This document shows, in pieces, positions 883 to 63,878 of a stretch of 64,000 nucleotides of DNA. Source of the DNA: Hormiphora californensis (taxonomy: Eukaryota; Animalia; Ctenophora); contig CM035354.1 of assembly GCA_020137815.1 (NCBI GenBank), positions 7,564,001 through 7,628,000 of the forward strand. Direction: 5' to 3'. Position 1 is the stretch's first letter. Every line of letters starts with the position of its first letter. A program made the position numbers and the translations under genes. The notes beneath the pieces were generated by a model. The model did no database searches and was not told where the DNA came from. It worked only from the letters and a program-made list of their open reading frames with translations.

Positions 883-3205
883 TCACCCAACAATCATAGC
901 CTCACTAGCAGGCATATCAATTTGTGCAGTGAGCACAGGAGCATTCCTACCTCTCACATACACAAAGACATTGATAGAATCAGTGATACCCTGTTCGCTG
1001 GTACACCGTACCATTATATTAACAGTATAGGTTAGAGTGGGTACTAGCAGAGGCAGAGTTATGTAACATTTCTCTAACACATACAGATTATCATTTGTAA
1101 CAAGCATGATGTAAGCCCCTGTTATTGGTGTCGTGTTTGAGGTGTTCATAACTTCAATTGTCAGCCGAAACATTGGCCCTATTCCCTGAACATTTGCTGA
1201 TATTTTGAGCGGTGCTGCAGCGGTCAGAGATACCGGTGTCATCTTCTTCTGGAGTGCATTTACATAGTTCTGAGCGGTAGTCAGGCGGAGTTTGTAGAGG
1301 TCATGCTGGAACTGGCGGTGCATCGCAACACCGTTCTCCCTCTCTCTCATGGTCTGTTCAACAAAGGTTTTAGTTTTCCTGGGCACGTTCAGTTTCTGGT
1401 ACTGCTGGGGCGAGGGACCAATGGCTCCAGTAGCTATTCCTTGGGTTAGATCTGCATTTCGTTTCAGAATAAACACCACGAGGCCACCTGATTTTGTGAT
1501 CACTACAAGGGAGGACTCCTCTCTGTCGTACCGTCCAAATTGCATCATTGCAGGGGTATCAGGACAGGAGAGAGAGTCGATGAGGAACTTATCTCTGTAG
1601 AGACGTATCTCGTTGTTAGAGAACCCAACTAGAATACCTGAGGGAGAAAGGAGTGGTTAGAGAGAGAGAGAACTAATTGTCAGTACTTTGGTAGTTAATA
1701 TGATTCAATAATCAGGTTATAAGACATTAAAAAGTTGAAACAAAGCAAAAAATATACCTTTGAAGGTTTTAGCTTTGAAATCCATAGCAGCGACACAAGT
1801 AATCTGGTTATCGAAATTAATGCTCCACAGGTTCTTGATTTTGTTGCTATAGCATATCAGAGAGTTGTCCATTGTAGCAATTACAATATTCTTGCCCAAC
1901 CTCTCAATACCAATTGGGTGAGCATTGAGTGTGATGGAGAATTTGGGTGTCGAGAGCCCCTTTTTTAGCACCAAAACACTCCCATTTCGGCATGCTACCA
2001 GAATCCTGTAATCCACATCATACAAACCCGTTGATCGGATAAACACTGGCTCAGATGGGAGGCTCTGCCGAATCAGAACTGTAAAAGCCTCCGGGTCTAA
2101 AATGAAAAGCTCCCTATTTTCAGTTCCAATCAGCAGACAGCTGATGGCATCATCGTCAGCGTGAGACTTCCTCAGAGTGTCCAGAGATGTGATGACAGTT
2201 TGCCGCTTGAGGGGATTATCTCGGTATACCGCTATAAAGTGGGATCTCTGGTGGACGGAGGTCTGGAGGAACTTGGAGGAGAGAGGGGTGAGGGGCACGG
2301 CATCAGAATCATTCTTTATACTCTCCAACATATCGTATAACATCTGTACATCTATCTTATCGTTCTGAAACGAATTTATTATTTATTGGGCGCCAGGTGG
2401 GGGAGTGAAGACAAAGAGAAATAATATATAACGTTGATCAGCGAGAGATTGGACTCCAATGTTATATTAGCTTTCTGAAAGATAACAAGTAGAAAAGTAA
2501 CACACATACCTTAGCTTGTTCCCAAAGGTCTTGCTCCAGTTGATTTATCTCGAGAGAGGGGAGGGTGAACTTGAAGAAGGGACGTGTGTTCTTGTACACA
2601 TAAATGTAAGGTCCAGCTGCTAGTGCTAGGGCGGGTATACGGGGCTCTGTGAGGTCTACGTAGAAGGATACAATTGCTGTTGGAGTCTCAATGATATTTG
2701 TTTCAAAATTGAGAGATGTCCCGCTGTAGACCTGGGGAGAGAGGTATTACTAGGAGGGAAGTTTCTAATTAGTGAGGGGGTGAGGAGTGGGTGTCTAATT
2801 AGTGATAAATGGGGGGGGTGTAATCGGTGGGAAATGAGGAAGTGATTCAGAACTGAGCAACAATTGAACAAACATATACACACGGCAAACCTAAGGTATT
2901 GCCATACAACGGCCAAAGGGTAAACGGTGGTATAAAGATTGAGGTATAAAGATTGAGATATATAAAGCTACACGCATGTCGCAAGTGCAGTGTATTCAAA
3001 AGTCATTTGGTTTTGTATTAATTAGTAACAAATATGAAATTCAGTGCATTACCTTTAACTTTGGGGGCCATGAGAGGTTTCCATTGTCCGCTACAACAAA
3101 TTGATGTGTTGGTTGGCCGTACACATTTGTTAGGGAGATACAGGATTGGAATGTGTGAAGGTTGGCTACTGGGTCCGAATGGGCTGACAACCAGATCTCA
3201 CTCAT
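883..3205 (-). CDS. BBS1: Bardet-Biedl syndrome 1 protein (BBSome subunit), 4 exons, about 578 aa
   Basis: Exons 3205-3053, 2731-2510, 2364-1758 and 1637-883 with GT-AG borders splice in frame. N-terminus WLSAHSDPVANLHTF, plus GPYIYVYKNTRPFFKFTLP, LLIGTENRELFILDPEAF, FGRYDREESSLV and KLNVPRKTKTFVEQTMRERE match the BBS1 family. Confidence 0.96.
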
Positions 3206-3226
3206 GCTAGAAAATATGATGGGTTA

Positions 3227-3459
3227 AAGTTGGATTTTTTGAAGTTGTCACCACCCCCCCCCCCCCCCCCCCGGGTGCCGCACGAGTTTTTATTTGCACA
3301 CCGGAAACTTGTTATAGCTCTCACGCCTTTGTTTCTTGACCAATTCTTTCCGATGAAATGCGGCTTTTTTGCCGAAAAGTGAGAGGAAGTGGGGGCTGTC
3401 ACGCGCAAATACAACGCCTGCACACGTGAAATGGGGGTGACAACTTCAAAATCCGACTT
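3227..3459. mobile_element. MITE family A (TIR AAGTYGGATTTTTTGAAGTTGTCACC), TA-flanked
   Basis: Inverted termini at about 3227-3252 and 3435-3459; the same TIR recurs at 58679-58828. Confidence 0.7.
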
Positions 3460-4472
3460 TAGCTATCTTTAGTATAGGAATGTAAAATAACAAGTGTTTC
3501 TGCTCATCTATTTCTATCTACTCTGTCTCTAAAGTATACAATATACAACCTATACCCTGATAGCGACCAGTCAAAAAGTTCAAAAGCCATCAGGAGATCA
3601 GACTCGCCACAGTATGAGAGAACAAATTGCGATTAACTCCAAATTCCCCCTTTCTCTGTGAGGTAGCTTCTCCTCGGCTATCGAAAAATGATGCCAATCG
3701 GAGATGGGGTATTATCTTACCCACTGTAAGCACATTGTCAATTGTAGTTCGTTGGTTGCATTTATATTTCCGACAGAACGTTCACCTGCTTGCTCCATTC
3801 ATCTGACCCATCTAAAGTCAAATCAAATCAAATCAAATCAAATCAAATTAAATTTACACAATCTAAACGCGTGCGGATTTCCCAGCGAGTGGGTCCTCCT
3901 TGTCAAGTCTTAACTCAAAATATTAAAATCGAATCGCCCCGTCATGTGGTCAGTCATCAGCAAAATCACACACAGCAAAATCACACACAGCAAAATCACA
4001 CACAGCTAAGATTTCGCCGCCTGACTGAAGTCATTCGGGACCGTGGGGTACCTCTCACGGAGGCTGTCCTGTTCCTTGAAAGACCACTCTTAAACCTGCA
4101 GTCACAAAGGGTCACTCTCGGCGCCAAAAGTTTTGTCTTTAGTATTATGTAGTTTAGGACTCCTGTAAAATAGAGCGTTCCTGCCTCTGGTGACCTATCT
4201 AATCTCTCTTTCACTTGTCTCTGAAGTCTACAACCTAAACCCTGCTAGCGAGCTATAAAAAAGCCACAAGGAGACTTGCCTCAACATGATAGGCCATCCG
4301 ACAGTAACTCGTAGCTTTCACCTACTTGCTCCATTCCTCTGACCCATTAAAACGTTCAATTTTAAAGCAGACTTTTTTTTCAAATGTTCACCCCAAACTC
4401 GTGAACAATCCGTGCACGAAAAGGGGGGAGTGCCGAGTGAACTGTGAACATTGAACATTTGAAATAACCTAA

Positions 4473-4614
4473 AGTCTTTTTTTTCAACTGCTCCCCCAAA
4501 CTCATGAAATTGTGAAATTGGTAATTTTAGATACGCACACCACACGTTAACATGTGATAGGCACGCAAAACAAATCTGTGCACTAATTTAGGGGGAACAG
4601 TTGAAAAAATGGAG
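4473..4614. mobile_element. MITE family B (about 150 bp; TIR AGTCCATTTTTTTCAACTGTTCACCCC; core ACGTTAACATGTGATA)
   Basis: Homologous to copies at 57308-57455, 58831-58980 and 59023-59174; TA at both flanks. Confidence 0.75.
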
Positions 4615-4616
4615 TA

Positions 4617-5820
4617 TAACGGGTGATAACTAAAAATTGTTACTGATTTGAAACGGCTGTATAATTTTTCCCTTTGGAGATACAGCTTCAGGCCCGTAAT
4701 AGAACGATTTTTTAGACAATTTTGAATCAGAATAATATATCTTCAAAGAATAAAAAGTTCATTTTCATTGCGATATCGGGTCATTTTCTTTTGCCCCACC
4801 AATGCATGTAGTACGGAATATCTACACATTTTTCTAGCACCTCTAGCGCCTGTTCTGTTTGAGATACAGCTTCGGGATAGTGATAGAATGATTTTTCAGA
4901 CAATTTTGAACGGAATTAACTTTGGCAGGGACGGCGCTCGTGGGTGTCCGCGGACACCCAGACCAGAAAGACGGAAAGAGAAAAGAAGAAAAAATGGAAA
5001 AAAACAAAAAAATTGAAAAAAATCGATGAAAACTGCGAAATTTTGGATTTGCGTGCAGCCGGGTGACCGGAGCTCTGCCGGACACCCGGGTGCACTGCAC
5101 GCACCTGTAATGCACGGCAGAGCATAAAGAGGGTTCTTCCGCGCGCCACAGTGCATTTTGACGTGACCAGGGTGTCCGGTTCACCCAGAAAATTGTGTGT
5201 GCGCGCGGATGATTTTTTTCTCGTGATCAGGAAACTTTCATCTTTTATTCCATTTTACACAAAAGGAGTTCAGAAATGCTTAAAATCGATTAAATACGCC
5301 TAAAAATGTCCGAAATTTTCGGGGGGCTTCGCCCCCTCAACCCCCACCGGGGCTTGCAGCCCCTGGACCCTTGCCTTTGGTTCAGACAATTTCCTGATCA
5401 CAGAATCTTCTATAACAAACCCTCCAAAGCGTAGTTTACAGGTAATTTGAGAGATAACCATTTTTACGATCTCTTGAAACATTTTTGACGCAGAAAACCA
5501 ACTTCCTGATGAGCTAAAATGTTCAAACTTGGCAGTTATGTTGGTTATGTCATGAACAACCAAACTTCCAATTTTGAGAATCGGGAAGGGTGTTTCTGAT
5601 AGCATAGAAATTTCGAATATCCGTACTACATGCTTTGTTGGGACAAGAGGAAATGATGCGATATCGCAATGAAAATGAACTTTTCAGTCTTTGCCGTTAT
5701 GTTATTCTGATTCAAAATTGTCTGAAAGATCGTTCTAATACAGGCCCGAAGCTGTATCTCAAAAGGGAAAAATTATACAGCCGTTTCAAATTAGTAACAA
5801 CTTTTAGTTATCACCCGTTA
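4617..5820. mobile_element. Non-autonomous TIR element with about 200-bp diverged TIRs (ends TAACGGGTGATAACT / AGTTATCACCCGTTA)
   Basis: 4617-4820 is an imperfect reverse complement of about 5615-5820; TA at termini; the interior holds GC-rich mini-palindromes (TGGGTGTCCGCGGACACCCA, GGGGGCTTCGCCCCC); no transposase ORF. Confidence 0.7.
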
Positions 5821-5846
5821 CTTTCTCGGGCGCCGTTACGAGAAAC

Positions 5847-6265
5847 CCCAACCCTAACCCTACTTTAGCCCTAACCCTAAAAAACCGTTTGTCAGCACTC
5901 ACGAAACACCCAGATTTTAGCGCTGGCCTACTTTCTCAGACTGAGAATCTCTTGGCATGCTCTGCAGACCCCTAGGCCTAGTTTGCGTGTTTCCCACGGC
6001 TTTCATTGGGGACTGCAGCGTAAAGAGAATCTCAGTGACCTGGTCTTTTCACTTAGGGCTTGATTATAATCTGGGTGCCTTGCAGCCTGTTTACAGGTGT
6101 GCGCTACCAAAAGAGTACACTTAGACCGACTTTTTTCAAACGGCTATAGCCACGCAACCACATGGCCAATTTGAGTAAACTAAACGGTAACTGATAGAGA
6201 ATCGATAGCCCTAACCGATAACCCTAAACCAAACCCAAACCAGACCCTAACGGATAGCCCTAACC
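5847..6265. repeat. Dispersed repeat containing degenerate telomere-like (CCCTAA)n
   Basis: AACCCTAACCCTACTTTAGCCCTAACCCTAAAAAACCGTTTGTCAGCACTCAC at 5850-5902 recurs at about 58243-58299; GCCTGTTTACAGGTGTGCGCT occurs at both 6084 and 57973. Confidence 0.7.
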
Positions 6266-6336
6266 CGTTGCGTGCGCTAAAACTACGAATTGTTAGCAAT
6301 GAAAGGCACCCAGATTTTAACGTTTTCCTTTCACTT

Positions 6337-6488
6337 ATGAGGAGGCTCGGAAATGTTCATGTCATGCACATTCAAGTCACGCCTACCAATCACAGCTCAG
6401 AACGGCTCTTGCGATCCGCGCGTTCTGAGTTGTGATTGGTGGGCGTGACTTGAATGTGCATGACATGAACATTTCCGAGCCTCCTCAT
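6337..6488. mobile_element. Hairpin MITE containing CCAAT and GC-box-like motifs
   Basis: About 68-bp near-perfect inverted arms ATGAGGAGGCTCGGAAATG...CATTTCCGAGCCTCCTCAT. Confidence 0.65.
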
Positions 6489-6867
6489 TTCAAAACATTT
6501 TGGATCGGTCGGAACTCGGACGGAGCTGGGCCCCAACGTGTCCCTGTGCGTCCGGGCCAGGTGTGGCATCCACGGTAATAGTCAGGGGTATCGGGTGAAA
6601 CCCCCAAAAGTAGGACCAGGGGCGCACAGCGGGTGTACGGATCTGAGCCTCCGCGAATGGTAGCTTTGTTTAAGATTCATAAATTTTAAAAATGATAAAA
6701 AAATTCAAACCGCGCCAGCTCAGCTCAGCTCAGCTCAGCCAGTTTCAAGAAAAGAATTACAGATTTATGCGCTGCAATCCCCAAATGCGCGTGCGCGTTA
6801 CAATCCAGAGCTGAGTCCGACAAAAAAAACTGGAACCAGTTCCGAAAATTCAAAAGTGCGAAAAACA

Positions 6868-6986
6868 AGTTGGAATGCGCTGCAGCCCCCTCATGCGCGC
6901 ACCCCCGCAACGAGGGGACTGAAGGGAATGCCGCGCGCGCGTTTGGCCTGAGCTCAGGACGGGCCCGGCTGGGTCGAAGATAACTT
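6868..6986. repeat. GC-rich dispersed repeat
   Basis: Reverse-complement copy at about 58333-58440 (shared core GGAATGCGCTGCAGCCCCCTCATGCGCGCACCCCCGCAACGAGGGGACTG). Confidence 0.8.
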
Positions 6987-7800
6987 TGCGAGCGAAAAAA
7001 CGGCGGTGCTTATAACTTTGGCCCCTGAAGTCCGTTTTGCTTGATTCTTTCACTAGCTGTTAGATCTGACAATTATCTACCTTGCTGTTTTTGAGAGAAG
7101 TTAATTGGATTTAAGGAGGCTGAGCAATAGCCGTTGAAAGATGGGTTGTTTTCAAAAAGTGACGTCACAGATTCTTGCAGGGACACCTTTTTAAAAATTT
7201 CATTCAAATTTTGATTTTACCGCACTCGATTTTGCGGAGTTTGGTTCATATCTCCTGTTCCTGATAAGATAGAGACCTGAAACCGGTTGCATTTGAAAGC
7301 TGTTATCTTCCTCTTTCCAACGCTACCAAAACGATTTCTGTACCTTATCTGGAACCGGAGATATGATTGATTATGTATTCCCCCCAGCGCGGTATTCCCT
7401 CCAGGCCCCTTATATTATATTATAAGGGGCCTGCAACGTATGCCAAAAAAACAAGCTTGGCATGCGCTGCAGACCCCAAGTGCGCGCGTTTTCCACGGCT
7501 TCTAGGGCCTGTAGCATAGGCCAAAAAACAAGCTGTTTTCTTCCGGTTTCCAGTTGTCTAGGCACAAAGAAGTATGGAGGGGGAGTGCGTGAGCTAATTT
7601 TAGGGTTTGGTGAGCTCAAAGGCGTTGAGACCGATATTTTTTTGCCAAAATATTGTCCCCCGAAACCGAAAATTACACATTTCTGAGCGATAAAGTCTAA
7701 GATGCACCCTAAACCGCATCTCCATTCGATTGATTGCAATGTAATCTTGATAATCAATAACCATATTTTGAAAACTAAACTTAATGCAATAATTAGGGTC

Positions 7801-9461
7801 ATGGGAAACGTTGCAGCATCCGCCAAGTCACCAGATCCGTTCGCGTCACTCCCGGAGCTGACCGTGGAATCGCTGAGCGAACCTCCCAAAAGTGATGATG
7901 GCCCTTCAGCACCCGCATCAAAATCCAAAAACCCCGGATCTTTCGAAGAACTACCTCGACAGACTAAAGAGGTCTTTCCAACACCGTTCGAGGGATGCAA
8001 GTTTTCCTGGAATAAAATGATCACGGAACGTTTCCAAGCATCACATTCCATCATGATGTCCTCGTTTAAACCCCCTGCATACAAATTCGGAGCAACATAC
8101 GTTGGTGGCATGAAGCTGGGGCCCAACGAACAATATCCTGTGTTAATAAGGTACTTCAGCATTTGATCACATTTCACTTCTTGAAACGATGATTTAAACG
8201 ACATTATTTATAACACATTTCCCTCAGTGAGTATGGTGGCGGAATTGTTCAGTTCCAAGCTATTCACAGCTTCTCAAAACAAGTACAAGCAAAGGCCGTG
8301 GTACACGCAACAGATAAAACATGGTCAATGTACCAAGGTAAGCAGACATTAGTATATATCCCTGCCCTTTCTTAGTTCAAGTATGTTGGTGTATATCCCC
8401 TGTCCTTTTATTTCTTATTTCAAGATTATTCGTTTGTAATTGGTAATGGTAATGCATTATTATAACTCACTTTGTACCGTGTTTATACAGGTGATATTGG
8501 CTACAAGGGTAAAGATTTCTCAATGCAACTGACGGGTGTAAATGCCAGCATCATCAATCCTCAGGGAATCTGGGTCGCCCACTATCTCCAGGTAATGATA
8601 ATAGTATGATAGGTTTGCCTTGTTCTACCATCTCTGTGCGATGGCTGATGCCGAGGGTTAGAACAAGTTTAGATATATCGGTGGCACGATCTGTTTCTAT
8701 ATTCACCCCATGCTAGTGTATAATAAACATGACACATTTAATAACCGTCCATACGCTGTTTGTTTACATCTTCAGAAACTGTAAAGATTAAATCAGCAGT
8801 TAAGTAATTATCCAGACTAATATTTTATATTTGTATTTTCAGTCGGTAACGGATAAATTATCGCTGGGTGGAGAGTTGTTGTTCCAGCATGGTATGGGTG
8901 CCAAGAATGCTGCTCTAACATTGGGTGGCAGGTTTAGGGATGGAGATACAGAGTGTAAGTGATGTCTTCCTGGATCTAGAGACACTTCCCAGGCTCTCTA
9001 TCTTTCTCTCTTAAATCGGTTTCGTACTTCGTAGTGCTGATACTTTTGCTCACTTACAACACTAAAATGTATTTCGTGGTTCGTTGTTTTGTCAATTCCC
9101 TGCAATGTACTACATTTTCTCAGTCTAGGTCTAACAATCCATTTCCCTCAGTTATGGTAAAGACGGGGGAACAATCAACAAACATTAGGTTTCTACGTAA
9201 AGGGCAATGAACAGGTTGAGTGTGCCTGTCGAGTTTGAGTACGTGAAACAGATGGGAGAATCAATAACCTACACTCGGGCTACTTGTGTTGACCTACCCA
9301 AGGGACTATCCAAGTTCAGGGGCTCCATTGACACCGACTGGTCCGTAGCTGGTGTTCTTGAAAAACGATTCGAGGCATTCCCCTTCGCGTTCACCCTATC
9401 GGGACTGTTAAATCATAAGAAAAACCAAGCGAAGTTTGGGATAGGGTTTACTATTGGGTAA
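7801..9461 (+). CDS. TOMM40: Mitochondrial import receptor subunit TOM40, 5 exons; last exon has apparent indel errors
   Basis: Exons 7801-8150, 8228-8337, 8491-8591, 8843-8954, 9152-9461. Motifs NPGSFEEL, FQASHSI, YKFGATYVG, HYLQSVTDKLSLGGEL and GSIDTDWSVAGVLEKR...AKFGIGFTIG. The frame is broken at about 9165-9230. Confidence 0.94.
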
Positions 9462-9801
9462 AGACGGTGTGTGACTCCTCTCTCTTCCCCCTTCCGTGAC
9501 AGCTGAGATGATTTTGTAAATTTTATATCGCCATATCTTTTAAGTTATTATTAGCGCCCTTATATTTTTTAATCTCCGTGTCGAATTTCTCGTGTTTTCC
9601 TCTCTCTTCCCTCCACCTGTCATGTTGTAGACGGTACAACTGTCCATTTCCTCCTTTTAACCCTCCCCATATTTGGCGTAATAAATGTTAGGTCGTTGCA
9701 GAAAGATCTTCATTTCCCAATATTTTCTTTCTGGGACCACCTAATGCTGTATATATATGCCCAGTCCCCTTCTAACCCTCCCATTTCTGCAATCTCTAGA
9801 T

Positions 9802-12780
9802 ATGCCAAGTGTTAGCGAAAGCTCCGAGGGGGCCGGTCTTGCCCAATTTGACACACCACGAGTGGTAAACAACCCGGTAGGATGGGGACCAATCTCTATT
9901 CCGGAGCGGTTCAAGGATATTCCCTATCAACCGTTTAGCAAGAGTGACAATCTTGGACAGGTGCGTGACGTCACGCAATTTAACTAGCCAATCACATGCG
10001 AGAATGTGTACTCGTGTAATAATGTCCGAGTGAACTATCCTACTTTTCTCTATCCATTGTGTAGTAGGGAGACTCACCAGAACAATACAATATCATATGC
10101 TCACGACCGGCCACTCTACTCAGTATAATAGTTGTCTTTCCGTTATATAATCCTACTATCGTGAATTAGGATTATGATAATTTCTAGCATAATTGCCTAC
10201 TTATGCCTTTTAGCTCTTGGACTCACATCATTGTATTGTTAGTCCTCCCCGTGTAGTAGACAGTGTACTCATTCTTTCTAAGGAAATCTCGATTCATTTC
10301 TCTCTCTGTTTCGGCTTTCTTTATGATGCGTAAGAGCTGTATTGTTCTGCGTGAGAGAGAGTCTAAATAAGTCTAGTACACTAAAGCCCTTACTTCTCGA
10401 GAAGAGATATAATTCTCTTGAATTCTCTGTCGGTAGTTTTCGCTTTTGTCGTATCTCTCTCCCTGACCGCAAATCATGCCTTTATAGAACCGTCCATGTC
10501 TCTCATTCATTCTGTTTGTTATTTTGTTCTACATCGCCTGACGTCGGTGCGCCTCATGTGCTCTCACAAGTTACTGAGTAAGCAACCTCTTGACCCTCTC
10601 TATGTCTCCTGACAGTTGACACACCTCTCTGTCTCCTGACACCTCCCTCTCTGTCTCCTGACACCTCCCTCTCTGTCTCCTGACACCTCCCTCTCTGTCT
10701 CCTGACACCTCCCTCTCTGTCTCCTAACACCTCCCTCTCTGTCTCCTGACACCTCCCTCTCTCTGTCTCCTGACACCTCCCTCTCTGTCTCCTGACACCT
10801 CCCTCTCTGTCTCCTGACACCTCCCTCTCTGTCTCCTGACACCTCCCTCTCTGTCTCCTAACACCTCTCTCTCTCCCCAGATCACTGACTGGACTGGCAG
10901 TCTCCTGAACGAGAGGTCCAAGTACCGATCTAACTACCACCAGCAGTTTGGTAGTGGAGCTCACTACAGTTATTATCATGAGGAGGATGATAACACTTTC
11001 CAGTTGGTCGACACTACCAAACCCCAGAGGAGTCTTTACCAGAGGTACTGGGAAGATAGAGGGAGAGATAGAGATATGAGATAGAGATACAGAGTGATAC
11101 AGAGAGATACAGTGAGAGAGAAGGGGGATAAATGCCAACAAGTTTATACCGGTTTTCTAAACCTCGCGATACATTTACTAGAGCTATTATCAGGGCATCA
11201 TCGTCTTGCCTCTCAGTTATTGTTCCTAATTTACCCTAGTTTGGTAAAAAAAACCCTTACTTTTTGTTAGTGCTCCTACTTCCTAGTATTTAACTCTGAC
11301 TGGTTTTCAGGTCTCGAGCCAGGTACCAGAATAGGAGGAACCAGAGGCCCACACAGCGTGTCCAGGACCCCAAGACTGGTAGGATGACGGTGCAGCCGAA
11401 ATACAACAACACCAGGAGGAACCATTGGAACTCTAGGAACGATAACAAGAATCAGGTATGGTGCTGTTGTTACTCTCTCAATAATAACCTTCTCTAGTCT
11501 TAATGACTCCACGGATGTAAAGTGAGATTTTTACTTTTACTAGAAAGAGCACGAGAATCAAGATTTCTTGTTCCCCACTGTACACGTTCGGCGTTTTTAC
11601 TCCCCAACTCTCATCCACAGGTCAAGCTGAAGTCCTCGGTTGAGGTTCGAAAGGATTGGGAGCTGAATGTGGAGATCGAGTTCTCTCAGATCTCAAAACT
11701 CCAGCTTCCCTACCCCGCCAAGGAGGTCGTCACTCTGGCCGAGTGTGGTACTGTCGAGTACTATGACAAGAGGTAAGAGCCTGGCACTACTTTCTCTATT
11801 TGAATTTGAGAGGAAGAAGAAGTAAGATGCTGGCTCAGAAATTTTTGATAATTCTGGGAAATCTAGGTTTTCAGGTGAATGCCCTTATATAGTACTTAGT
11901 TGTCGTAGTAGTGCTGAAAAAAGTAAGGTTTTAAACCCATAAAACCTGTAAGATATGTTATATAAAAGTTAGTCACATATATCTCTCATGGTATGATGGG
12001 TTTCTTCCCCTGCCTAATTTCCTACACACGTCACACACATAGTATAGTAAGGGATAAACACTGTTTATAAAGAGATATCTGGAGAGGCGCTGATAAACAT
12101 GATTACACATTCGATCTCGTGTAATTACTCTCCTGATTCATCTCTCCTACTAAATGTATCATTTCACTCTAACCTTATATATTTTTCTCTCCCTCTCATT
12201 TCCCCTCTCTCTCTCGCCATGTAATATATCCTCTCCCTGCTGGCGCCATGGCTCTCTTCTTTCCGGGTTTATATTGGATTTCTGGTACACGTACATGCAA
12301 TGAACTCCAATTGTTGTACAATAATTATAGGAGGAATGTATAATACCCCTCCCCCTCCCCAGGTATGATCGTATCACGACTAAGGCGGAGCGACCGCTCC
12401 AAACCACTAACCGTCTGTTCCACAACATTTCCACTGCTGATGATCCTGTGATCCGAGAGCTGGTGAAGGAAGCCCAGGTGTTCGCTACTGATTCCATCCT
12501 CTCTACTATCATGACGTGTCCCAGGAGTTACTACAGTTGGGATATCATCATCCAGAGGATTGGGAGCAAGTAAGTTGGGAATGTGGGGGATAAAACTGGA
12601 GCTGGAATGTGAGGGGAGGAGTTGAGAGGAATTTTCGAGATGAATAGTTCGAAATGATCGATTAGGTTGCTTGAGTTGTGTAGCCTGGTACCATCTTGTT
12701 AAAGTGATAGGAGATCGAAAAAACATAATGTGTTTGTCCCGTAGTGAACTTTCCCACAGCTCTCTATTTTAGGAGACAGT

Positions 12781-14623: not shown

Positions 14624-15066
14624 GAAACTCCAAGTTTTCCCCCGGAATTCCCTGAATTTTGATTCTTTTTTCCTGTTTTTATCATTTTGGTTGATGCCAA
14701 AGCTTTTTATTTTTCTTTGATTTCCCTTTTTCTTCGTGTACACTCCATTTCTCTCTCTGTCCTGGTTAATTCCATGCCTAGTTAGGGCATGGGGTTATGA
14801 TGAGGGTTAGTGCGGTGGGTACTGTGCTGGGAACATTCTACATTTGGGGTGGGTGAGGGAGGGCGCGGCGCGCGCTCTACATGTAAAGTACATTTGTTAG
14901 CATTTGAAAATTACGAAACTTGAAATTGTTCGAGGGTCACCTCTCCCAGCTCCTGTCAACTTCCACTACCTCCTATCCCATCTGCTCCCCTTACCTCCCC
15001 CAACCTACCATGCTATTTTATGTACCGCCACCACTCTAACCCCCTCCATCTCCATCTAGCTGTAGA

Positions 15067-46476: not shown

Positions 46477-54771
<8,295 letters not shown>

Positions 54772-55163
54772 CGCTATATCAGGGGAGGGAGGTTAGGGAT
54801 GAAATATCGCCATACAGCAGGGGAGGGATGAAACAAAGAGGTTTGGACCTGCATTCATTGGGACAAGAACTATATGATGGAGAGTTGGGGAGGTGGGGAG
54901 GGAATTAATAGAGTCATCTGGCGTCTGCAGGCCGCTGCAGTCGTGTGAGTGGTAACTCAACATTTCAACAACCAGTGGGAAAATTGTATGAAGCAGTTCC
55001 AATTAGTATGGTAGCTATGGAGAGATGGAAGCAGAGAGAGATAAAGCAGAGGCGTTTAAATTGGATAAGAGTTCTGTACATTCATATCTGACTAATTAGC
55101 GATGTAAAGAGACATGTGTATAACGACATGCAATAAATTAGATTCGCACTATCTCTCTCTCTT

Positions 55164-55229
<66 letters not shown>

Positions 55230-55334
55230 CTCCCTCTCACTCTGTACATTTATATACACAATATGTACACAACATTAACGCGTTATAACGATGCATGCTG
55301 GTCAACAGCACTGCACTACATTCAGACACTGACA

Positions 55335-56809
55335 CTATTTAACGGAATTCGTATGGCTCCGCATCATGTTCTTCAAATTCTCCTCCCTATCATTGAAACC
55401 TCCCAGCCGGGTATTAGTTGGGTAGGGAGGGTGAGGCATGCCTTCCATGGCTAGTTCCTCGCCATAAACAGGGCCATCGTTCCACATGAGATCAAACCCA
55501 CCCACCCTCTTCTCTTTCCCTGTTAGTTTCCCCTCCATGTCTATAACCGTCAACACATCGTGTAGCAGTTTGAATTTCAGATCATAATCCTGTTGATTTG
55601 ACGCGGTTAGGGAGGGAGAAGCGTTGATTTCCAGCAGCCACGGTTTCAGAGTCTCATCAATGAGAATGTCATACCCGTACAACTCGAAACAATGTTTATC
55701 ATTTATCATTATCTTCTGGGTGCTTTGTAGACTCTTTATAAAGATATCATCCATGGCCCGGAATAGGGTCTCTACCGCCTCTGGACCGTGTTTCGTCATC
55801 AAATACATCCGGAGTTGTATGAGCGACCATTTGCACCCCTTCTCAGGATCATAATCAGGAGCTGTCTTCTGAATTGCCACGTTGGTAAGATGGACATAGG
55901 TATCCTCAATAGCGTCCGTAGAATATCGACTATTAGACATTCGACCAAACCCACTTCTGTATAACCATACTTTTAGGGGTATGTAGGACGTTACTAGCAC
56001 ATAACAACGGATATCAAACTTCCTGCCGCCAATTAGATAAGGGTTGTCGATATATTTCTGGACCACGTAGTTCTCTACTGGTTCCCGATCGTCCCTAGTC
56101 CCATCAACCTTCCAGCTATCTTCCTTCTTCCACTCCATAATGTCCTTGAGTTTCCTAAACAGGAAGATTCCCTTGCCCTGGGATTTTGCGATGGGCTTCA
56201 TAATCCACGTAGAGTTCGGACATCGCTTGAATTCCTCTACAAAGATGTGATAGTCGGAGGGGAGCTCAAATGTTGTTGGGAAGAAATCACACTTAGCAGC
56301 TTCAATCTTCCCACTCTCCCGCTCGATAAACTTTCGGAGACGTTTCAAGTTTTTGGCCATAAGATTCTTCCGTGTCAGCTCGTAGTGGTTTCGAAAGTGA
56401 TTTAACCTCATGTGTTCCTCCATGTAACAATGATCAAACACTTCCCTCATCCAGCCCACATCGGCCCAGTAGAAATCCCAGTCACCTGGCGAGGGGAGGA
56501 CAATTAGCTACTGAATATACTAGATAGAGAGGGAGGGAATGAGATAGGAAAATTGAGGCTTGAGCAAGGTATTTAAAAGAACCATCATGGGGGGCAAAAC
56601 TCGGTAACTTTTAAATCTTCACGGCCATGTATCAAGCAAGATGGTTGTGCAGTAAGCTGGCTGATTGCCAGTTGGAACATACCTGATTCTTCTTTCACTT
56701 CTTGCCATCCCCGTGAGCGTAGCACGTCTGCGATTGTGTTCTGGAGGCTACACTTGAATCGAATAACTTTACTTTCGTTTCGGGCACCGCGGTTTCTGTT
56801 TGTATACAT
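55335..56809 (-). CDS. TTLL9: Probable tubulin polyglutamylase TTLL9, 2 exons, about 425 aa
   Basis: Exons 56809-56683 and 56485-55335. Motifs [87 protein letters not shown] and [16 protein letters not shown]. Confidence 0.95.
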
Positions 56810-57307
56810 CTATAATACATAGGATCAGAAGGTTATACACTACAAATGAGCAGTTGTAATGGATATTTTCTATTGAATAATGGATGGTAGAGTGATGAAT
56901 AATTATATTGATAGACTCTTAGTGTTAGTAGTTGAATTAACATGATTGAAGATGTGTAACTCATGGGCATTTCAAAACTCTCAGGCGATTTTACATAAAG
57001 TTGGACAGTGAATACAATTATGCCACCTGGTGTCACAGAGCCAGATGACCACGTACGCAGCTTCATTTCAAAACTTTGGATTCGGCAACTTTCACTTTTT
57101 ATAGTGCTACAGATTTTGCAACCACTAAACTCCGTTAAAATGACAACTTTTATTGGAATGATAGCTTAGGTCAATTCAAATCATCCCTGGGCAATTACCT
57201 GACAGGCTTTCATGACCGTCCCCCTGCCAGAGGCTATCACTCACTTCCCAATGATATTTCCCCTCAATGTGCTGTTGATGTCTGCTGATTGGCTGAGAGG
57301 TGATATA

Positions 57308-57455
57308 CTCCATTTTGTTCAACTGTTCACCCCCCAAAGTCGCGCACGGAATTGTTTTGCGTGTCTATCACATGTTAACGTGTAGTGTGCACCACGAAAA
57401 TTCCAAATTTCACTGAAATTTCAATTTTGGGGGTACAGTTGAAAAAAATGGACTT
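57308..57455. mobile_element. MITE family B copy
   Basis: Same TIR and core as 4473-4614; TA flanks. Confidence 0.75.
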
Positions 57456-58678
57456 TACGTGTTTAATTTATTTAGGTGGACCCACTAAGGGAAGGCCTGT
57501 TGTGTACACTAAAACTTTTATTGAAAACTTGTAAACTTGTAAACTTGATTGTTTTAAAAAAAACTTTCTGATATTGGGCTCCAAAATGGCGCTTAACTGA
57601 ATCAATGGGACATACCTCTAGATATTTATAAATTATAGCCTAAAGACTGAACACGGTGCACCAGAAGGATCGTCAACCTAAGGTTGAGCCCACAAAACAA
57701 ACTTCTCTTGGTGCGACCCAGGAGGCTCTCCCGAATCACTCTACGGTGCGGAAAAACTGGTTTTTGAATTTTGGTCAAAATCTGTGCATAAGCCTGGACA
57801 GCGCTGGACCCAAAATTTTTTTCGTGAATGAACGCCGCGCACCGCCCCTGATAAGCCATAAATTACATGACTGTCGTCTGTCGAAAAGAACAGGATCCAC
57901 GTTTCAGGAAGAAAAAAAAACAAACAAAAAGTGGGAAAATGACGGGTGCCGTTACGATCTGGGTGTTTGGTGGCCTGTTTACAGGTGTGCGCTTCCAAAA
58001 AAAGTTGATTCACTAAAGTCCGTTTCAAGCGACTTGACCCGTAATTCTTGGAATTTGGCGCATTGCGCGTGTATTTACAAAGGGGAAATCCTGAATTTCC
58101 AGGAATCTCAGGTCAAGTCCCGGTCAAGTCGTTTGAAACGCACTTTAAAATGGCTCTAAACGCCAAACCACTCAACCGTTTTGGCTAATTCAAAGTTAAC
58201 CTGGTAAGAAATGTCCACGACTAAACCTAACCCTAATCCGAACCCTAACCCTAACCCTACTTCAGCCCTAACCCTAAAAACCGTTTTGTCAGCACTCACC
58301 AAACACCTTGGCAAACGCCGCTGGCCCCCGATAAGTTATCTTCGACCCAGCCGGGATCAGGCCAAACGCGCGCGCGGCATTCCCTCCAGTCCCCTCGTTG
58401 CGGGGGTGCGCGCATGAGGGGGCTGCAGCGCATTCCAACTAAACACCCAGATTTTAACGCTGGCCGAAAATGACACGATTTTTGTTGAATAATTGGGAAA
58501 ATGAAATTTATAACGCGCGCCGCGCGTTAGCTAAAGCCGCGGCAGCGCTTGCCACCCATATTGGCCGCTTACATTTTCTGCTGCGCTTGATTCGCGTGAA
58601 ACAACGCCGCGCTTGGCACACCCGCGCGCCGGATACTTTTAAAAACAAGTTTTTATTTTATTTGTTTTGTTCCCCTAA

Positions 58679-58980
58679 AGTCGGATTTTTTGAAGTTGTC
58701 ACCCCCCTTCTCGTGCGCGGAATGTTTTTGCGCGTCACATCACATGTTAACGTGTGGTGTGCGCGGCAAAATTGATAAATTTCACACGCGCGGTCATTTT
58801 GGGGTGACAACTTCAAAAAATCCGACTTTAAAGTCCATTTTTTTTCAACTGTTCACCCAAAAACTGAAATTTGATAAAAATTAAAATTTGGGTGGCGCGC
58901 GCTACACGTTAACATGTGATAAACGCGCAAAACAATTCCGCGCACGACTTTGGGGGGTGAACAGTTGAAAAAAAATGGAG
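58679..58980. mobile_element. MITE family A (58679-58828) abutting MITE family B (58831-58980), sharing one TA
   Basis: Junction ...TCCGACTT-TA-AAGTCCATTT...; both carry the ATCACATGTTAACGTGT core. Confidence 0.8.
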
Positions 58981-58983
58981 TAT

Positions 58984-59431
58984 AGGGATCCCTAAAAAAG
59001 TTCAGTATTTACACAGCGTTTACAGTCCATTTTTTTTCAACTGTTCACCCCCCAAAGTCGTGCGCGGAATTGTTTTGCGCGTTTATCACATGTTAACGTA
59101 TAGCGCGCGCCACCCAAATTCTAATTTTTATTAAATTTCAGTTTTTGGGTGAACAGTTGAAAAAAAATGGACTTTACACAGTCTTTACACAGTCGTTACA
59201 CCCAGAGCGCCCGCGCCGCTCTGGGTGTAAAGACTGCGTCATTCGCACTCGATTTGCAGCGTTTTCGGAAACTTTTTTCGCCGCAGCGCTCAATTTACTC
59301 AATTGTGCAGCACACAATCCAATATTTTCTTAGAAAAAGCTGCAAAACGCAGCACGCGCCGCTCTGGGTGTAACGACTGTGTAAAGACTGTGTAAACGCT
59401 GTGTAAATACTGAACTTTTTTAGGGATCCCT
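58984..59431. mobile_element. TIR element (AGGGATCCCTAAAAAAGTTCAG ends) with a family B MITE (59023-59174) inserted in its left TIR
   Basis: The right arm gives the empty site GCGTT-TA-CACAG; the left arm has TA duplicated at 59021-59022 and 59175-59176. Confidence 0.85.
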
Positions 59432-59587
59432 CTTGATTCACACCTCACCGCTTTTTCGGTTTGTCGTTTCTGTTTTGCCGTTTCTGGGGTAGGCCGTAGG
59501 GGTGCTTCATAATCCCTGGTTACTATTTGCTGCAACAAGACGTGTTGTGTATATATTAATGAATTACTAACCTCATATTGCCTAGAA

Positions 59588-61447
59588 ATGGCCGAACCGT
59601 GGAAAGACAAAATACCAAAACCGATCAATGTAGGCCTGTTCGGAATTGATGATGCTGGAAAAACAGCATTTTTGTTCAGACTGAAGCTGGGTGAGATGAT
59701 AACGACCATTCCAACAATTGGATTCAATTTAGAGAGTGTTAAAGTGACTGATTTTTCTGTTGATGTTTGGGAAGTGGGTGGAGACGTGACGGTGAGACCG
59801 TTATGGAAGCACTACTATGATATCTTAGACATTATGCTGTATGTAGTAGACGGATCGGACATGGATCGTATGGAAGAATCACAAACTGAGTTGTTTAAGT
59901 TGTTCTCTGTTGAAGTTCTAAAGAATGTCCCTATTTGGTGTGTCGCTAGTAAATCAGACAACGCTTGGAGCCTCAGTGAAGAAGAGTTAGTGAGAGCGTT
60001 GCAGTTGGATAAAGTGGAGGGTAGAGAGGTTCGGTTATTTAAATGTTCCTCCCTAACCGGAGATGGGATAGCTAATTTGTTGGATAATGTAGCAGTTGAG
60101 CTGAAGAAAAGTCCTGATGTTATTGCTAGAATCGATCACAATGAAATATGTGAAAAGGACAGATTGGAGAAAGAAGCAAAAGAAGAGGAAGAAGCAGAGG
60201 ATGGTGAAGAAGAAAAAGAGGAAGAAAGGATAGAAGAGGAAGGAGAAGAAGAAAAAGAGGAAGAAGAGAACAAAGAAGAAGATGGTGATATATTGGACGA
60301 TGCCGAAATGGCCGAACCGTGTAAAGACAAAATACCAAAACCAATCAAAGTATGCCTGCTCGGAATTGATGATGCTGGTAAAACAGTATTATTGTACAGA
60401 ATGAAGCTGGATGAAATTATAACGACCATTCCAACAATTGGATTTAATTTAGAGACTGTTAAGGTGACTGATTTTTCTGTTGATGTTTGGGAATTGAGCG
60501 GCAGCATGATAATGAGATCGTTATGGAAACATTACTATAATGACTTAGACATTATGCTGTATGTAGTGGACGGATCAGACATGGATCGTATGGAAGAATC
60601 ACGAACTGAGTTGTTTAAGTTGTTCTCTGTTGAAGTTCTAAAGAATGTCCCTATTTGGTGTGTTGCTAGTAAATCAGACAACGCTTGGAGCCTCAGTGAA
60701 GAAGAACTAGTGAGAGTGTTGCAGTTGGATAAAGTGGAGGGTAGAGAGGTTCGGTTATTTAAATGTTCCTCCCTAACCGGAGATGGGATAGCTAATTTGT
60801 TGGATAATGTAGCAGTAGAGCTGAAGAAAAGTCCTGATGTTATTGCTAGAATCGAGCACAATGAAATATGTGAAAAGGACAGATTGGAGAAAGAAGCAAA
60901 AGAAGCAGAAGAAGCAGAGGAAGAAGAAGAAGATGACAGTGAAGAGGATGATATGTGGGACGGTGTGCCAAGGATTAAGATATACGGACAGGAAGGAGTT
61001 GGCAAATCTACTATTTTCTATCAACTTCTTCTGGGTACGGTGCCTGACATAGTCAACCCCGATCTCACATTTCTTAGGGAGGAAAACATCAAATTTCATG
61101 GCATGAAGTTTCGTTGTTTTGACTTTTCTGGGCATCGTAAATGTCAGAAACTATGGAAACAATACTACCACTCGTGTGATGCTGTGCTGTTTGTGGTTAG
61201 TGGTCGTGATAATAACTTAAGAAGCAGCTTGGACTTGTTGGTGGATATTATTTGTCACTTTGCCTTTCCAACTGAATCTCCTGTGGCTGTGCTAGTTAAC
61301 AATTATAACGGGGAAGGTAAAACTGCTACTGAGGTTGAGGAGATTTGGGGTGCTTCATTCAACCGCAGAGTAGCCTTCTTTGATGTAGATGCCATGGTGC
61401 CCGAGAGTTTAGTTGAACCTTTGAAGGTGATTATGGACAGTGTTTAA
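59588..61447 (+). CDS. Intronless protein with three tandem Arf/Arl-like GTPase domains separated by acidic linkers, 619 aa
   Basis: G1 GIDDAGKT (twice) and GQEGVGKS; switch-I TTIPTIGFN (twice); LWKHYY/LWKQYY; units 1 and 2 are a 720-bp tandem duplication starting at 59588 and 60308. Confidence 0.92.
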   Translation: MAEPWKDKIPKPINVGLFGIDDAGKTAFLFRLKLGEMITTIPTIGFNLESVKVTDFSVDVWEVGGDVTVRPLWKHYYDILDIMLYVVDGSDMDRMEESQTELFKLFSVEVLKNVPIWCVASKSDNAWSLSEEELVRALQLDKVEGREVRLFKCSSLTGDGIANLLDNVAVELKKSPDVIARIDHNEICEKDRLEKEAKEEEEAEDGEEEKEEERIEEEGEEEKEEEENKEEDGDILDDAEMAEPCKDKIPKPIKVCLLGIDDAGKTVLLYRMKLDEIITTIPTIGFNLETVKVTDFSVDVWELSGSMIMRSLWKHYYNDLDIMLYVVDGSDMDRMEESRTELFKLFSVEVLKNVPIWCVASKSDNAWSLSEEELVRVLQLDKVEGREVRLFKCSSLTGDGIANLLDNVAVELKKSPDVIARIEHNEICEKDRLEKEAKEAEEAEEEEEDDSEEDDMWDGVPRIKIYGQEGVGKSTIFYQLLLGTVPDIVNPDLTFLREENIKFHGMKFRCFDFSGHRKCQKLWKQYYHSCDAVLFVVSGRDNNLRSSLDLLVDIICHFAFPTESPVAVLVNNYNGEGKTATEVEEIWGASFNRRVAFFDVDAMVPESLVEPLKVIMDSV

Positions 61448-61659
61448 ATTGAGAGGGAACAACTGCAGAGATCGTTTTGAAAAAAATTGTGCACTTTTTT
61501 GTTTTCTGTATTTTGTAGATTTATTGATCATTTATATTTTGTACAATGTGTCATTACTTTTATATGTTTTATAATTCAAAAATTTTTGTGTTACGTTAAA
61601 CAATGTTGTTTGATTTCACCAGTAATATAATACCCACTTCCCCCCGACTTCCCTACAGG

Positions 61660-62726
61660 ATGCTTCTCTCTTCTCTCCTTCTTCTACTCCTCCCTACCGT
61701 CGCCCTTGGTTACAAAGATGCAGTCCCTGATCCAGACTTTTTGGTTGACATAACTGATATGGCACAAATAAACAACGAACAAACACTACCGGGTTATGTT
61801 AAACGGCTGATAAAGGAGGTCTTAGCAAGACCTGGGATCGAGCTGAGTGTGGTTGACAGATCCGTTCTACATAGGGCAGATCAAACGGACCCTCAAACTC
61901 TCGTTGACATTCTATTGAAGGTCTTGGATGATCAGAAACAGTGCAGTGATTCAGAAGAGGTTAGTATGGTGGAATCCCGACATTAAGATGTCCCTACCTG
62001 GTCCTATCATCCTCTCCCTTACCATCACAGGACTATTTCTCCTTTGCTACTTCTACAAGGCCGCCCGACGGTTCACAGCTCACCCTCCTCCTGTTTGTTT
62101 CATACTGTTACTCAGTCTACAGTCGTCTCCAACTGAACTATCTAGAGATGGTTAGCGGTAAAATGTCTGCACTAGAGAAGGATCTCCCTGCCCACTGCAG
62201 GAGCGAGTTCACCCTAACTAGTTGGTTGAGTGCAGTGTGGAGTACTGTCCAGGTTGGGGATCAGTGCAAGAAATACCACACTCAGATCATCTCAGATCCC
62301 CTCATGGGTATCAAACCATTTGAGAGTTTGTTTTACCCCCTCATGTCTCTACCCCTTATACCACTCACTGTGTTGGGTGAGGTTCTTGGGCCGTTCCTGG
62401 AGAATATTCTCGCTCCATTTTCCTTCCCAGTTCAGCTAACAGTTCTTGCCTTTTTATCCGTTCTAATATTCTCCGTCGCATATGCAGCAGTTTCCCTGCG
62501 ACCGACTGTATCACCACCTCCCCCTCCCCCTCAAGTCAGCCCTGAGAAACTGGAGGAGCTTCAACAGGCGGTACTGAGCCAGTTAGAAGAGTTGAAGTGC
62601 GAGTTCAGGAGATCAGTTGAGACTGATATCATGGTGATCAATGAACATGATTCGGTCTACGGGGGTGGAAGGGTCACTCAGCCGAGATTGTGTAGTCACG
62701 GTGACTCAGGGTGCAATGAGGAATAG
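61660..62726 (+). CDS. CLCC1: CLCC1/MCLC-like ER membrane protein, single exon with two +1 frameshifts
   Basis: Signal peptide MLLSSLLLLLLPTVALG; FLVDITDM motif; TM helices; W...DQCKKYH...DPLMGIKP...PLTVLGEVLGPFLENIL...QLTVL resembles the CLCC1 core. Three overlapping ORFs (61603, 61928, 62148) step through successive frames. Confidence 0.65.
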
Positions 62727-62973
62727 ATATTGTGGTTTTTCAGAAAAGTTTGTAAACCTTATTATGCGTGATCTGTGAGACGTTTTTAATGGACGTTTTT
62801 TTAAAGAATGTGAAGTGAAATATGTATCAGTTTTGAAATTGTAATATAAGAATTCATTTATTCATCACATCAACAATATGACAAGTAATGATCCCTGATA
62901 TTTAACTTAACATTCCCCTCTTGGTTAAAGCAAGCTTCTTCCTATCTAGCACCTGATTAGTTAGGATGACTCA

Positions 62974-63878
62974 ATGAGCGACTACTCCAGTATATTCAGT
63001 GGGTATACTGCATACCCTGGTTACCATGGTAGCGCTGCAGCAGTGACCCCTGAGCCAGCAGCCACTGCCAGCTACTACTAATGCCGGGTATAGTCAGGCG
63101 GCAGGGGCAACTGGCACTAACTACACAGCATACGGGACAGACCTATAACTAGTGGGTATGGGACCCAGCAGCAGGCCGGGGCAGCTAGTGCGGGAACCTC
63201 TGCCAGCAATTACAACTATGTAAGTACGATCCCCTTGCTGCCTATCCTATACCCATGAAGACAACACAGATATAATCGTTTTTGTGACTTGGTACTTTTC
63301 ATAAACATGATGATAAAACTCATCTAAACATTGTTATGGGTTGGTTCTATGTGATGCTGTTGAGGCTCTACGTCAGAGTCGCAATAGCATACATGTTAAA
63401 GATATTGTTTAGTCTATCGATTTGGTATTTATGGTTGACTAAAATTTAGGGGCACACCATCTCTCTTGTCGTTCTCGTATCAAAAACCATTCTACAACAT
63501 CAATTTATCACCAATCTGACACCCAGTACAGTGCAGTAGTAGCTCTCTAATTCCCTCCCCTCCCAGATGGATTGGGCCTCTGCTGCCACCGCTGCTGCAA
63601 TGTCAAGTGTAATCAGCGCCAACACCCCTGACCCCGCAGCCAGTACAATGTCCCACCACTCCAACAACAATAACAACAACTACAACAGGACCACCTATAA
63701 CAACAGTTCCAGAGGTGGGGGAGGTGGTGGTGGGCAACATTCCAAACCTTACTCCCGGCCAACTTGGGCCAAGAAGAAGCCCATTATTGCGGGTGGTGGT
63801 GCTGGTGGGGCTAGTGTGGTCGGTGCTAACGCTACCTACTACTGTGAGCTCTGCAAAATCAGCTGCATGGGATCAATG
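62974..63878 (+). CDS. 5' part of a ZFR-like RNA-binding zinc-finger protein; continues beyond the window
   Basis: Ala/Tyr/Gly-rich exon 62974-63219 (with apparent indels) and exon 63567-63878 ending YYCELCKISCMGSM|GT, the first half of a U1/matrin-type C2H2 finger as in ZFR. Confidence 0.65.

What the first reader, a model, noticed from the sequence alone, without database searches (positions are those of the whole stretch)
3203..62976. Nearly every start codon lies directly behind a 3' splice acceptor: signature of spliced-leader trans-splicing
Seen: BBS1 ttttctag|c-ATG; EIF3D ctaac..ctctag|at-ATG; 15067 ORF ctaac..ctgtag|a-ATG; SH3 gene ctaac..cgccag|ttgtt-ATG; SPEK gene tttttag|ATG; SLC34 ttccag|gca-ATG; CPT1 ctaac..atatag|cg-ATG; TTLL9 tattatag|ATG; triple-Arf ctaac..gcctag|aa-ATG; CLCC1-like ccctacag|g-ATG; TOMM40 aattag|ggtc-ATG (weak). 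Several have a CTAAC branch point and pyrimidine tract like the cis-introns here. Established: SL trans-splicing (nematodes, tunicates, flatworms, hydrozoans, ctenophores) uses unpaired acceptors close to the ATG. Inference: these are outron acceptors, not 5'UTR introns.
Basis: partly seen in the sequence, partly recalled or inferred. Interest (0 to 1): 0.82.

Follow-up and report, generated by a model that had tools for sequence, protein, structure and literature searches.

The report
Comb-jelly spliced-leader landing sites
In this comb-jelly DNA most genes have a splice signal just before the start codon, and RNA from related animals shows the known comb-jelly spliced leader joined there in two genes, so this is a process already described for these animals, though the tight same-strand gene rows may be operons, which is untested.

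Summary
The window is ctenophore DNA (TTLL9 91% to Bolinopsis, next hit 72%). All 11 quoted AG-ATG motifs exist. 9 of 14 starts have an AG within 5 nt after an AG-free tract of at least 20 nt, against 162 of 2072 control ATGs. RNA contigs show the Hormiphora-type spliced leader joined exactly at the AG of TOMM40 (7795-96) and EIF3D (9798-99). The other nine named sites were not shown either way. The same leader heads 106 distinct public sequences, and a tandem SL RNA gene was found in a related contig. So SL trans-splicing holds, but it is published for ctenophores. 'Nearly every start' is overstated: leader-to-ATG median is 17 nt (24 of 95 within 5 nt), the named AG is probably wrong for SLC34 and ORF15067, and three starts were left out. 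Two leads remain. Six of ten same-strand gaps are 211-561 nt, with CpG-rich DNA mainly at the two divergent gaps (possible operons; the scan noted one elsewhere in this genome). Start-proximal acceptors are TAG (7 of 9) while internal ones are CAG (41 of 46).

The parts
3203..3208 (-). BBS1 start codon (3205-3203) and TAG acceptor (AG 3208-3207), 1 nt apart; likely trans-splice site
   Evidence: AG-free tract 99 nt, score 9.4; 5' end not covered by RNA
7795..7803 (+). TOMM40 trans-splice acceptor (TAG, AG 7795-7796) and ATG 7801; leader joined here
   Evidence: X5 contig has 21 loose leader letters before 7795
9798..9804 (+). EIF3D trans-splice acceptor (TAG, AG 9798-9799) and ATG 9802; leader joined here; 338 nt after the TOMM40 stop
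   Evidence: X2 has 8 loose leader letters before 9798; X5 record 23 starts at 9798 with 23 unlaid letters (not printed)
15058..15069 (+). ORF15067 start; likely acceptor AG 15058-15059 (7 nt upstream) rather than the quoted AG 15064-15065
   Evidence: 11.5 vs 4.9; no RNA laid here
19255..19264 (+). SH3-gene start and CAG acceptor (AG 19255-19256); cis or trans unknown, 3.9 kb free upstream
27082..27131 (-).
   Evidence: L002; strong donor 407 nt upstream
36269..36273 (-). SPEK-gene start with TAG acceptor directly before the ATG
   Evidence: three exons join in frame; no RNA laid
37988..38000 (-).
43024..43071 (-). SLC34-like start (ATG 43026); likely acceptor AG 43071-43070 (43 nt upstream), not the quoted AG 43031-43030
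54769..54775 (-). CPT1 start and TAG acceptor (AG 54775-54774), 561 nt after the TTLL9 stop
   Evidence: no RNA laid
56807..56811 (-). TTLL9 start with TAG directly before the ATG (weak score 0.0; other AGs at -30 and -60)
   Evidence: no RNA piece shown reaching the 5' end
59584..59590 (+). Triple-Arf start and TAG acceptor (AG 59584-59585)
   Evidence: 5' end not covered by a shown piece
61657..61662 (+). CLCC1-like start and CAG acceptor (AG 61657-61658), 211 nt after the Arf stop
   Evidence: shown RNA piece begins at 61757
62948..62976 (+). ZFR-like start (ATG 62974; name recalled, no Pfam hit on the piece scanned); candidate TAG acceptors at 62948-49 and 62963-64, 223-238 nt after the CLCC1 stop
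   Evidence: X5 contig has 50 unlaid letters before 62974, letters not printed
3206..7794 (.). Divergent BBS1|TOMM40 gap, CpG-rich, likely promoter region; shares repeat families with the other divergent gap
   Evidence: 43.8 CpG/kb
56812..59583 (.). Divergent TTLL9|Arf gap, most CpG-rich gap in the window, likely promoter region
   Evidence: 51.2 CpG/kb

Best explanation
This is comb-jelly DNA in which the known ctenophore spliced leader is joined at the AG just before the start codon of TOMM40 and EIF3D, and most of the other start-proximal acceptors are likely trans-splice sites of the same kind. Mechanism: the pre-mRNA begins upstream with an outron or an intercistronic stretch (inferred). 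U2-type factors read the branch point, pyrimidine tract and first AG (inferred from likeness to the cis acceptors). A separate SL RNA donates a leader of about 44 nt through its GT donor (such a gene seen in a related contig; its use inferred). The mRNA then carries the leader plus a few nucleotides as its 5' UTR (shown for two genes).
For: Leader letters at 7795 (X5, 21 nt) and 9798 (X2, 8 nt; X5, 23 unlaid letters), two studies. They equal the end of the Hormiphora leader. No copy of the 21-nt motif in the window at 3 mismatches. In public contigs 116 of 121 motif hits are followed by AG and 108 of 121 lie within 28 nt of the locus end; 114 mRNA-like hits collapse to 106 distinct sequences. 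L089/L090 are two tandem copies of leader-GTAAG-hairpin-Sm-like site-hairpin, folding z -3.84. Acceptor enrichment at starts. No strong donor in any of the six short gaps. Start acceptors differ as a class from internal ones: TAG 7 of 9 vs 5 of 46, Fisher p 1.2e-4, post hoc.
Against: Only 2 of 11 named sites were shown. The RNA comes from assembled contigs of related animals (93-98% identical), not from the assembled individual. In leader-bearing mRNAs an AG lies within 5 nt of the ATG in 60 of 95, but is the leader joint in only 22 of those 60, so nearness alone is a poor guide. The gene at 27084 gets its leader on an upstream segment in a relative. Flatworms share many acceptors between cis and trans splicing (PMC12582326, passages). 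The SL RNA gene was not seen in this genome because none is held.
Confidence: 0.88

Rival explanations
1. The organism trans-splices, but most of the nine unshown acceptors end ordinary 5' UTR cis introns, and the leader is added to an upstream non-coding exon.
For: L002 shows this layout for the gene at 27084 in a relative. The window has more near-ATG acceptors (9 of 14) than leader mRNAs predict (24 of 101; p 0.0015), which cis introns could supply. SH3 and SLC34 have CAG acceptors and over 3 kb free upstream.
Against: Both sites that could be read are trans. The short gaps of 211-561 nt have no strong donor. Seven of nine are TAG, unlike internal acceptors.
Confidence: 0.08
2. The leader is a shared genomic first exon lying upstream of gene clusters and is joined by long-range cis splicing.
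For: [quoted passage not shown] Only 7.8 kb upstream of TOMM40 is in the window.
Against: No copy in 64 kb. The same leader heads 106 unrelated sequences. A tandem SL RNA gene with donor and Sm-like site exists. The authors of PMC8527503 suggest the shared exons may be mapping artefacts.
Confidence: 0.03
3. The AG-ATG pattern is chance plus purine-rich start context and reader selection.
For: 36% of control ATGs have an AG within 5 nt. Position -3 is a purine in 91 of 101 leader mRNAs. This fits SLC34 and 27084.
Against: The strict pattern is 9 of 14 vs 7.8%, and RNA shows splicing at two sites.
Confidence: 0.01

Closest known systems
Ctenophore SL trans-splicing (Hormiphora californensis, PMC8527503; Derelle et al. 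2010 as cited there, not read)
   Same: Same phylum; leader identical over the 23 letters seen at TOMM40; leader ends in TGAG; found on many unrelated mRNAs (56% of Iso-Seq reads in the paper).
   Different: Nothing in mechanism. The passages read give no acceptor consensus, leader-to-ATG distances, SL RNA structure or operons (0 hits for 'operon' in the main text; supplements unreadable).
Hydra RFC140-flp operon (PMC3273482, passages)
   Same: Upstream stop 417 nt before a trans-splice AG; here 338 nt for TOMM40-EIF3D with the downstream gene shown to be trans-spliced.
   Different: Hydra was tested with reporter constructs. Here co-transcription is untested.
Chaetognath operons (PMC12460157, passages)
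   Same: Defined as genes under 250 bp apart with a leader on at least one. TOMM40 RNA reaches 9585 and the EIF3D leader site is at 9799, a gap of 214 nt or less.
   Different: Genome-wide counts there; one supported pair here.
Ciona outrons (PMC4691747, passages)
   Same: Unpaired acceptor near the start with a promoter upstream.
   Different: Putative outrons peak near 100 bp, which shows that a short gap can hold its own promoter; this weighs against reading every short gap here as an operon.

Membership tests
Spliced-leader trans-splicing | One common leader on the 5' ends of mRNAs of unrelated genes | tested here: met
   TOMM40 and EIF3D; 106 distinct sequences among 114 mRNA-like hits
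Spliced-leader trans-splicing | Leader joined exactly after a genomic AG acceptor | tested here: met
   2 of 11 named sites shown (7795-96, 9798-99); 9 not shown
Spliced-leader trans-splicing | Leader not encoded upstream of the gene | tested here: inconclusive
   Absent from the 64 kb window; DNA beyond the window not held
Spliced-leader trans-splicing | SL RNA gene: leader, GT donor, Sm site, stem-loops | tested here: met
   L089/L090, two copies 778 nt apart in one public contig; the Sm-like site is read by eye, Rfam gave no relevant family; not this genome
Spliced-leader trans-splicing | Hypermethylated cap and Y-branched intermediate | not testable with these tools
   Needs bench work
Eukaryotic operon resolved by trans-splicing | Same-strand genes with short gaps | tested here: met
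   6 of 10 gaps are 211-561 nt stop-to-acceptor; 3 strand switches in 13 adjacencies, p 0.046
Eukaryotic operon resolved by trans-splicing | Downstream gene is trans-spliced | tested here: inconclusive
Eukaryotic operon resolved by trans-splicing | One promoter and a polycistronic precursor | not testable with these tools
   Only contigs available; no shown piece bridges a gap (tables were cut)
Eukaryotic operon resolved by trans-splicing | Linkage kept in relatives | not tested

The most novel reading that the evidence does not exclude
Comb jellies transcribe rows of housekeeping genes as operons from CpG-rich divergent promoter regions (TOMM40-EIF3D-ORF15067; Arf-CLCC1-ZFR; TTLL9-CPT1; SLC34-ORF37990) and cut them apart with one leader. 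Trans acceptors are told from intron acceptors partly by UAG versus CAG at the splice site.
Probability: 0.3. Interest if true: 0.62.

Novelty: already known. Interest (0 to 1): 0.3.

Why it matters
As it stands it confirms, from raw sequence plus public RNA, a process published for ctenophores. It also gives practical rules for annotating these genomes: use the first AG after the tract, not the nearest one, and expect a 5' UTR of leader plus about 17 nt. It would matter more if the short-gap rows are operons. A 2021 paper (PMC7986045, passages) says operons had not been reported in ctenophores, and they would extend trans-splicing-dependent operons to one of the earliest-branching animal lineages. 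A UAG/CAG split would offer a testable clue to how a spliceosome tells trans from cis acceptors.

Tried and rejected
Own genome: none is held, so no genome-wide AG-to-ATG count and no search for this species' SL RNA gene.

RNA on 1-10600: BBS1's 5' end had no cover in 4 of 4 runs. An X4 TOMM40 contig stopped at 7800 and an X1 contig at 7819 without loose letters, which is neutral.

RNA on 55260-64000 (X2, X3, X4, X5): no leader letters were printed for TTLL9, Arf, CLCC1 or ZFR. Telomere-like repeats crowded the tables (51 loose ends and 1383 pieces not shown). The ZFR contig's 50 unlaid letters are unread, so no verdict.

No tRNA and no Rfam family in the window; no part of the SL RNA gene unit either.

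A homolog search with L026 used the 'longer' setting; it showed only that L026 is a proteasome beta subunit and did not place it taxonomically. The leader-bearing contigs are assigned to ctenophores by the leader and by L002's match to the window, not one by one.

I considered that exon 36271 is an alternative first exon of the 27084 gene; rejected because it joins the SPEK exons in frame.

TAG in the first 12 nt after the leader is 3.7% vs CAG 2.8%: too weak to support the TAG lead. My palindrome check used inexact ends and failed; redone.

Rows dropped before counts. From 121 motif loci: 5 not followed by AG and 2 SL gene copies; 8 duplicates; 5 without a clear ORF; then 6 genomic or retro-like. 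From internal acceptors: 1 of 29 and 2 of 48, for wrong coordinates.

Derelle 2010 and the supplements of PMC8527503 could not be read; either may already give acceptor consensus or operon data.
Full report
Organism. The TTLL9 exon matches Bolinopsis microptera at 91% and the next listed hit at 72%. The window is therefore ctenophore DNA. The species was not determined, and no genome is held for it. Pfam supports BBS1, a porin-3 protein (TOMM40), eIF3d, TTL, Arf, MCLC/CLCC1, a carnitine acyltransferase and an SH3 domain (8 of 17 pieces scanned had hits).

Observation. All 11 quoted motifs are present at the stated starts. I found three further starts: 27084(-), 37990(-) and 62974(+). Against all 2072 other ATGs in the window, an AG within 5 nt is common (739 of 2072) and holds for 13 of 14 starts. 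With an AG-free tract of at least 20 nt added, it is 9 of 14 against 162 of 2072 (p 1.5e-7). With a score of 5 or more on a matrix from 28 intron acceptors, it is 7 of 14 against 35 of 2072. The pattern is real, though the p-values are optimistic because the starts were not chosen blind. For SLC34 and ORF15067 the quoted AG follows other AGs, and better acceptors lie 43 and 7 nt upstream.

RNA test. Seven runs were listed. Four, from four studies, were laid on 1-10600; all are assembled contigs. One X5 contig has 21 letters before position 7795 that lie on nothing in the stretch, and 7795-7796 is the AG before the TOMM40 ATG. One X2 contig has 8 such letters before 9798, the AG before the EIF3D ATG. 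An X5 contig also starts at 9798 with 23 unlaid letters that were not printed. The printed letters plus the shared AG equal the 3' end of the leader given for Hormiphora californensis in PMC8527503 (passages). The contigs are 93-98% identical to the window, so they come from relatives or other alleles. BBS1's 5' end had no cover. A second laying on 55260-64000 printed no leader letters for TTLL9, Arf, CLCC1 or ZFR. A ZFR contig has 50 unread letters before the ATG, which could be leader plus a diverged UTR or something else. The score is 2 of 11 shown, 0 refuted, 9 open.

Is it a leader? The 21-letter motif is absent from the window at three mismatches. 116 of 121 continue with AG, and 108 lie within 28 nt of the locus end. 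After removing 5 without AG and 2 gene copies, 114 collapse to 106 distinct sequences, 101 with a clear ORF. Two loci in one contig, 778 nt apart, read leader, GTAAG, hairpin, a U-rich Sm-like site (judged by eye), hairpin. They are identical over the first 423 columns and fold at z -3.84, with 0 of 200 shuffles as stable. This is the anatomy of an SL RNA gene as described in PMC7986045 (passages). Rfam has no matching family.

How general is 'directly behind'? After dropping 6 genomic or retro-like loci, the leader-to-ATG distance has a median of 17 nt, with 24 of 95 within 5 nt, 60 within 20 nt and 15 over 50 nt. The ATG was taken as the start of the longest ORF, which may inflate the tail. 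An AG lies within 5 nt of the ATG in 60 of 95 but is the leader joint in only 22. So the nearest-AG rule is unreliable, and the window is richer in very short UTRs than this sample (p 0.0015 on the 101-row set). One leader-bearing contig, L002, is the mRNA of the gene at 27084 in a relative (85-97% identical pieces). Its leader sits on about 140 nt that do not align in the window, ahead of the ATG exon. A strong donor lies 407 nt upstream of that exon's acceptor in the window. This is a likely cis 5' UTR intron, so both kinds occur.

Mechanism. Shown: leader joined at two AGs; same leader on many mRNAs; an SL RNA-type gene in a related contig. Inferred: trans-splicing at the other first-AG sites (BBS1, SPEK, CPT1, TTLL9, Arf, CLCC1, probably ORF15067 at -7 and ZFR); use of branch point and tract as in cis introns (branch-like motif in 7 of 14 starts under the strict rule and 18 of 28 introns); promoters upstream of the acceptors.

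Lead 1, operons. The 14 genes form four strand runs (3 switches in 13, p 0.046). Six of ten same-strand gaps are 211, 223, 338, 363, 436 and 561 nt from stop to acceptor; the other four are 1.2-7.2 kb. None of the six holds a donor scoring above the lower quartile of 42 real donors, a cut that would miss a quarter of true donors. The two divergent gaps (4.6 and 2.8 kb) have 44 and 51 CpG per kb against 14-30 in the short gaps and 22-35 in the long same-strand gaps. They also share several repeat families. TOMM40 RNA reaches 9585 and the EIF3D leader site is at 9799, with an AATAAA 120 nt before the acceptor. This meets the under-250-bp working definition used for chaetognaths (PMC12460157, passages) and resembles the tested Hydra operon, 417 nt (PMC3273482, passages). 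Against: no shown contig bridges a gap, and putative Ciona outrons peak near 100 bp (PMC4691747, passages), so a short gap can hold a promoter. Searches for ctenophore operons (listings only, and 25 of 50 listed) showed no paper titled on it. PMC7986045 says none had been reported by 2021. The library lacks most subscription papers. The scan itself noted an operon-like cluster elsewhere in this genome (e1-10649461, unreviewed).

Lead 2, acceptor class. Internal acceptors are CAG in 41 of 46 and TAG in 5 (2 of 48 dropped). The nine strict start-proximal acceptors are TAG in 7, including both shown trans sites (Fisher p 1.2e-4). The likely cis site at 27130 is CAG. This is post hoc and from one window. 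Two searches and passages of PMC12582326 and PMC4691747 did not show such a split described, which is weak evidence that it is new.

Verdict. SL trans-splicing in ctenophores is in print: PMC8527503 reports the leader on 56% of full-length reads and cites Derelle et al. 2010, which I could not read; its supplements were also unavailable. PMC12221973 (passages) was read for promoter features and has no mention of operons or outrons in its main text. Class: already known. Interest 0.3, carried mostly by the two untested leads.

Noticed in passing
window 9190, 9225, 9270, 9276, 9284 (TOMM40 last exon); 61959, 62078 (CLCC1); 63079 (ZFR): The window has single extra bases that RNA contigs lack (two of the TOMM40 ones in 4 of 4 runs), and these genes read out of frame in the window. 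Probably assembly errors; allelic differences are not excluded.
   Followed up: partly
window 3206-7794 and 56812-59583: The two divergent gaps share several repeat families: a 150-nt element (4467-4618, with copies near 57304, 58829, 59020), a GC-rich 119-nt piece, and a telomere-like CCCTAA tract with its flank. They are the most CpG- and GCGC-rich gaps. Possibly promoter or loop-anchor elements of the kind in PMC12221973; that motif was not tested.
   Followed up: partly
window 233-589: Perfect inverted repeat, arms of 176 nt at 100%, 5 nt apart; RNA contigs of two runs cover part of it. May be an element or an assembly artefact.
   Followed up: no
window 44810-46149 and 21734-21955: Long palindromes (about 1.3 kb, arms 91-99% alike; and 111-nt arms at 96%), foldback- or MITE-like.
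   Followed up: no
window 59588-61447: Single-exon protein with three Arf domains; the first two come from a recent 629-nt duplication at 92.7% identity.
   Followed up: no
L089 and L090 (one contig, 778 nt apart): Tandem SL RNA gene copies with identical upstream 300 nt and transcribed part; no Rfam family covers them.
   Followed up: partly
L030, L041, L044, L066, L073, L083, L087: Leader followed by long non-coding stretches, several with other sequence upstream of the leader; they may be leader-headed retroelements like those in earlier scan notes.
   Followed up: no
window 10624-10874: 22-nt tandem repeat (11 copies) that repeats the branch-point and pyrimidine region just before an EIF3D acceptor; like the splice-junction repeats noted elsewhere in this genome.
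   Followed up: no
window 62966-62977 and 37997-37929 (-): Short upstream ORFs just after the candidate acceptors of ZFR and ORF37990; 18 of 101 leader mRNAs also have an upstream ATG.
   Followed up: no
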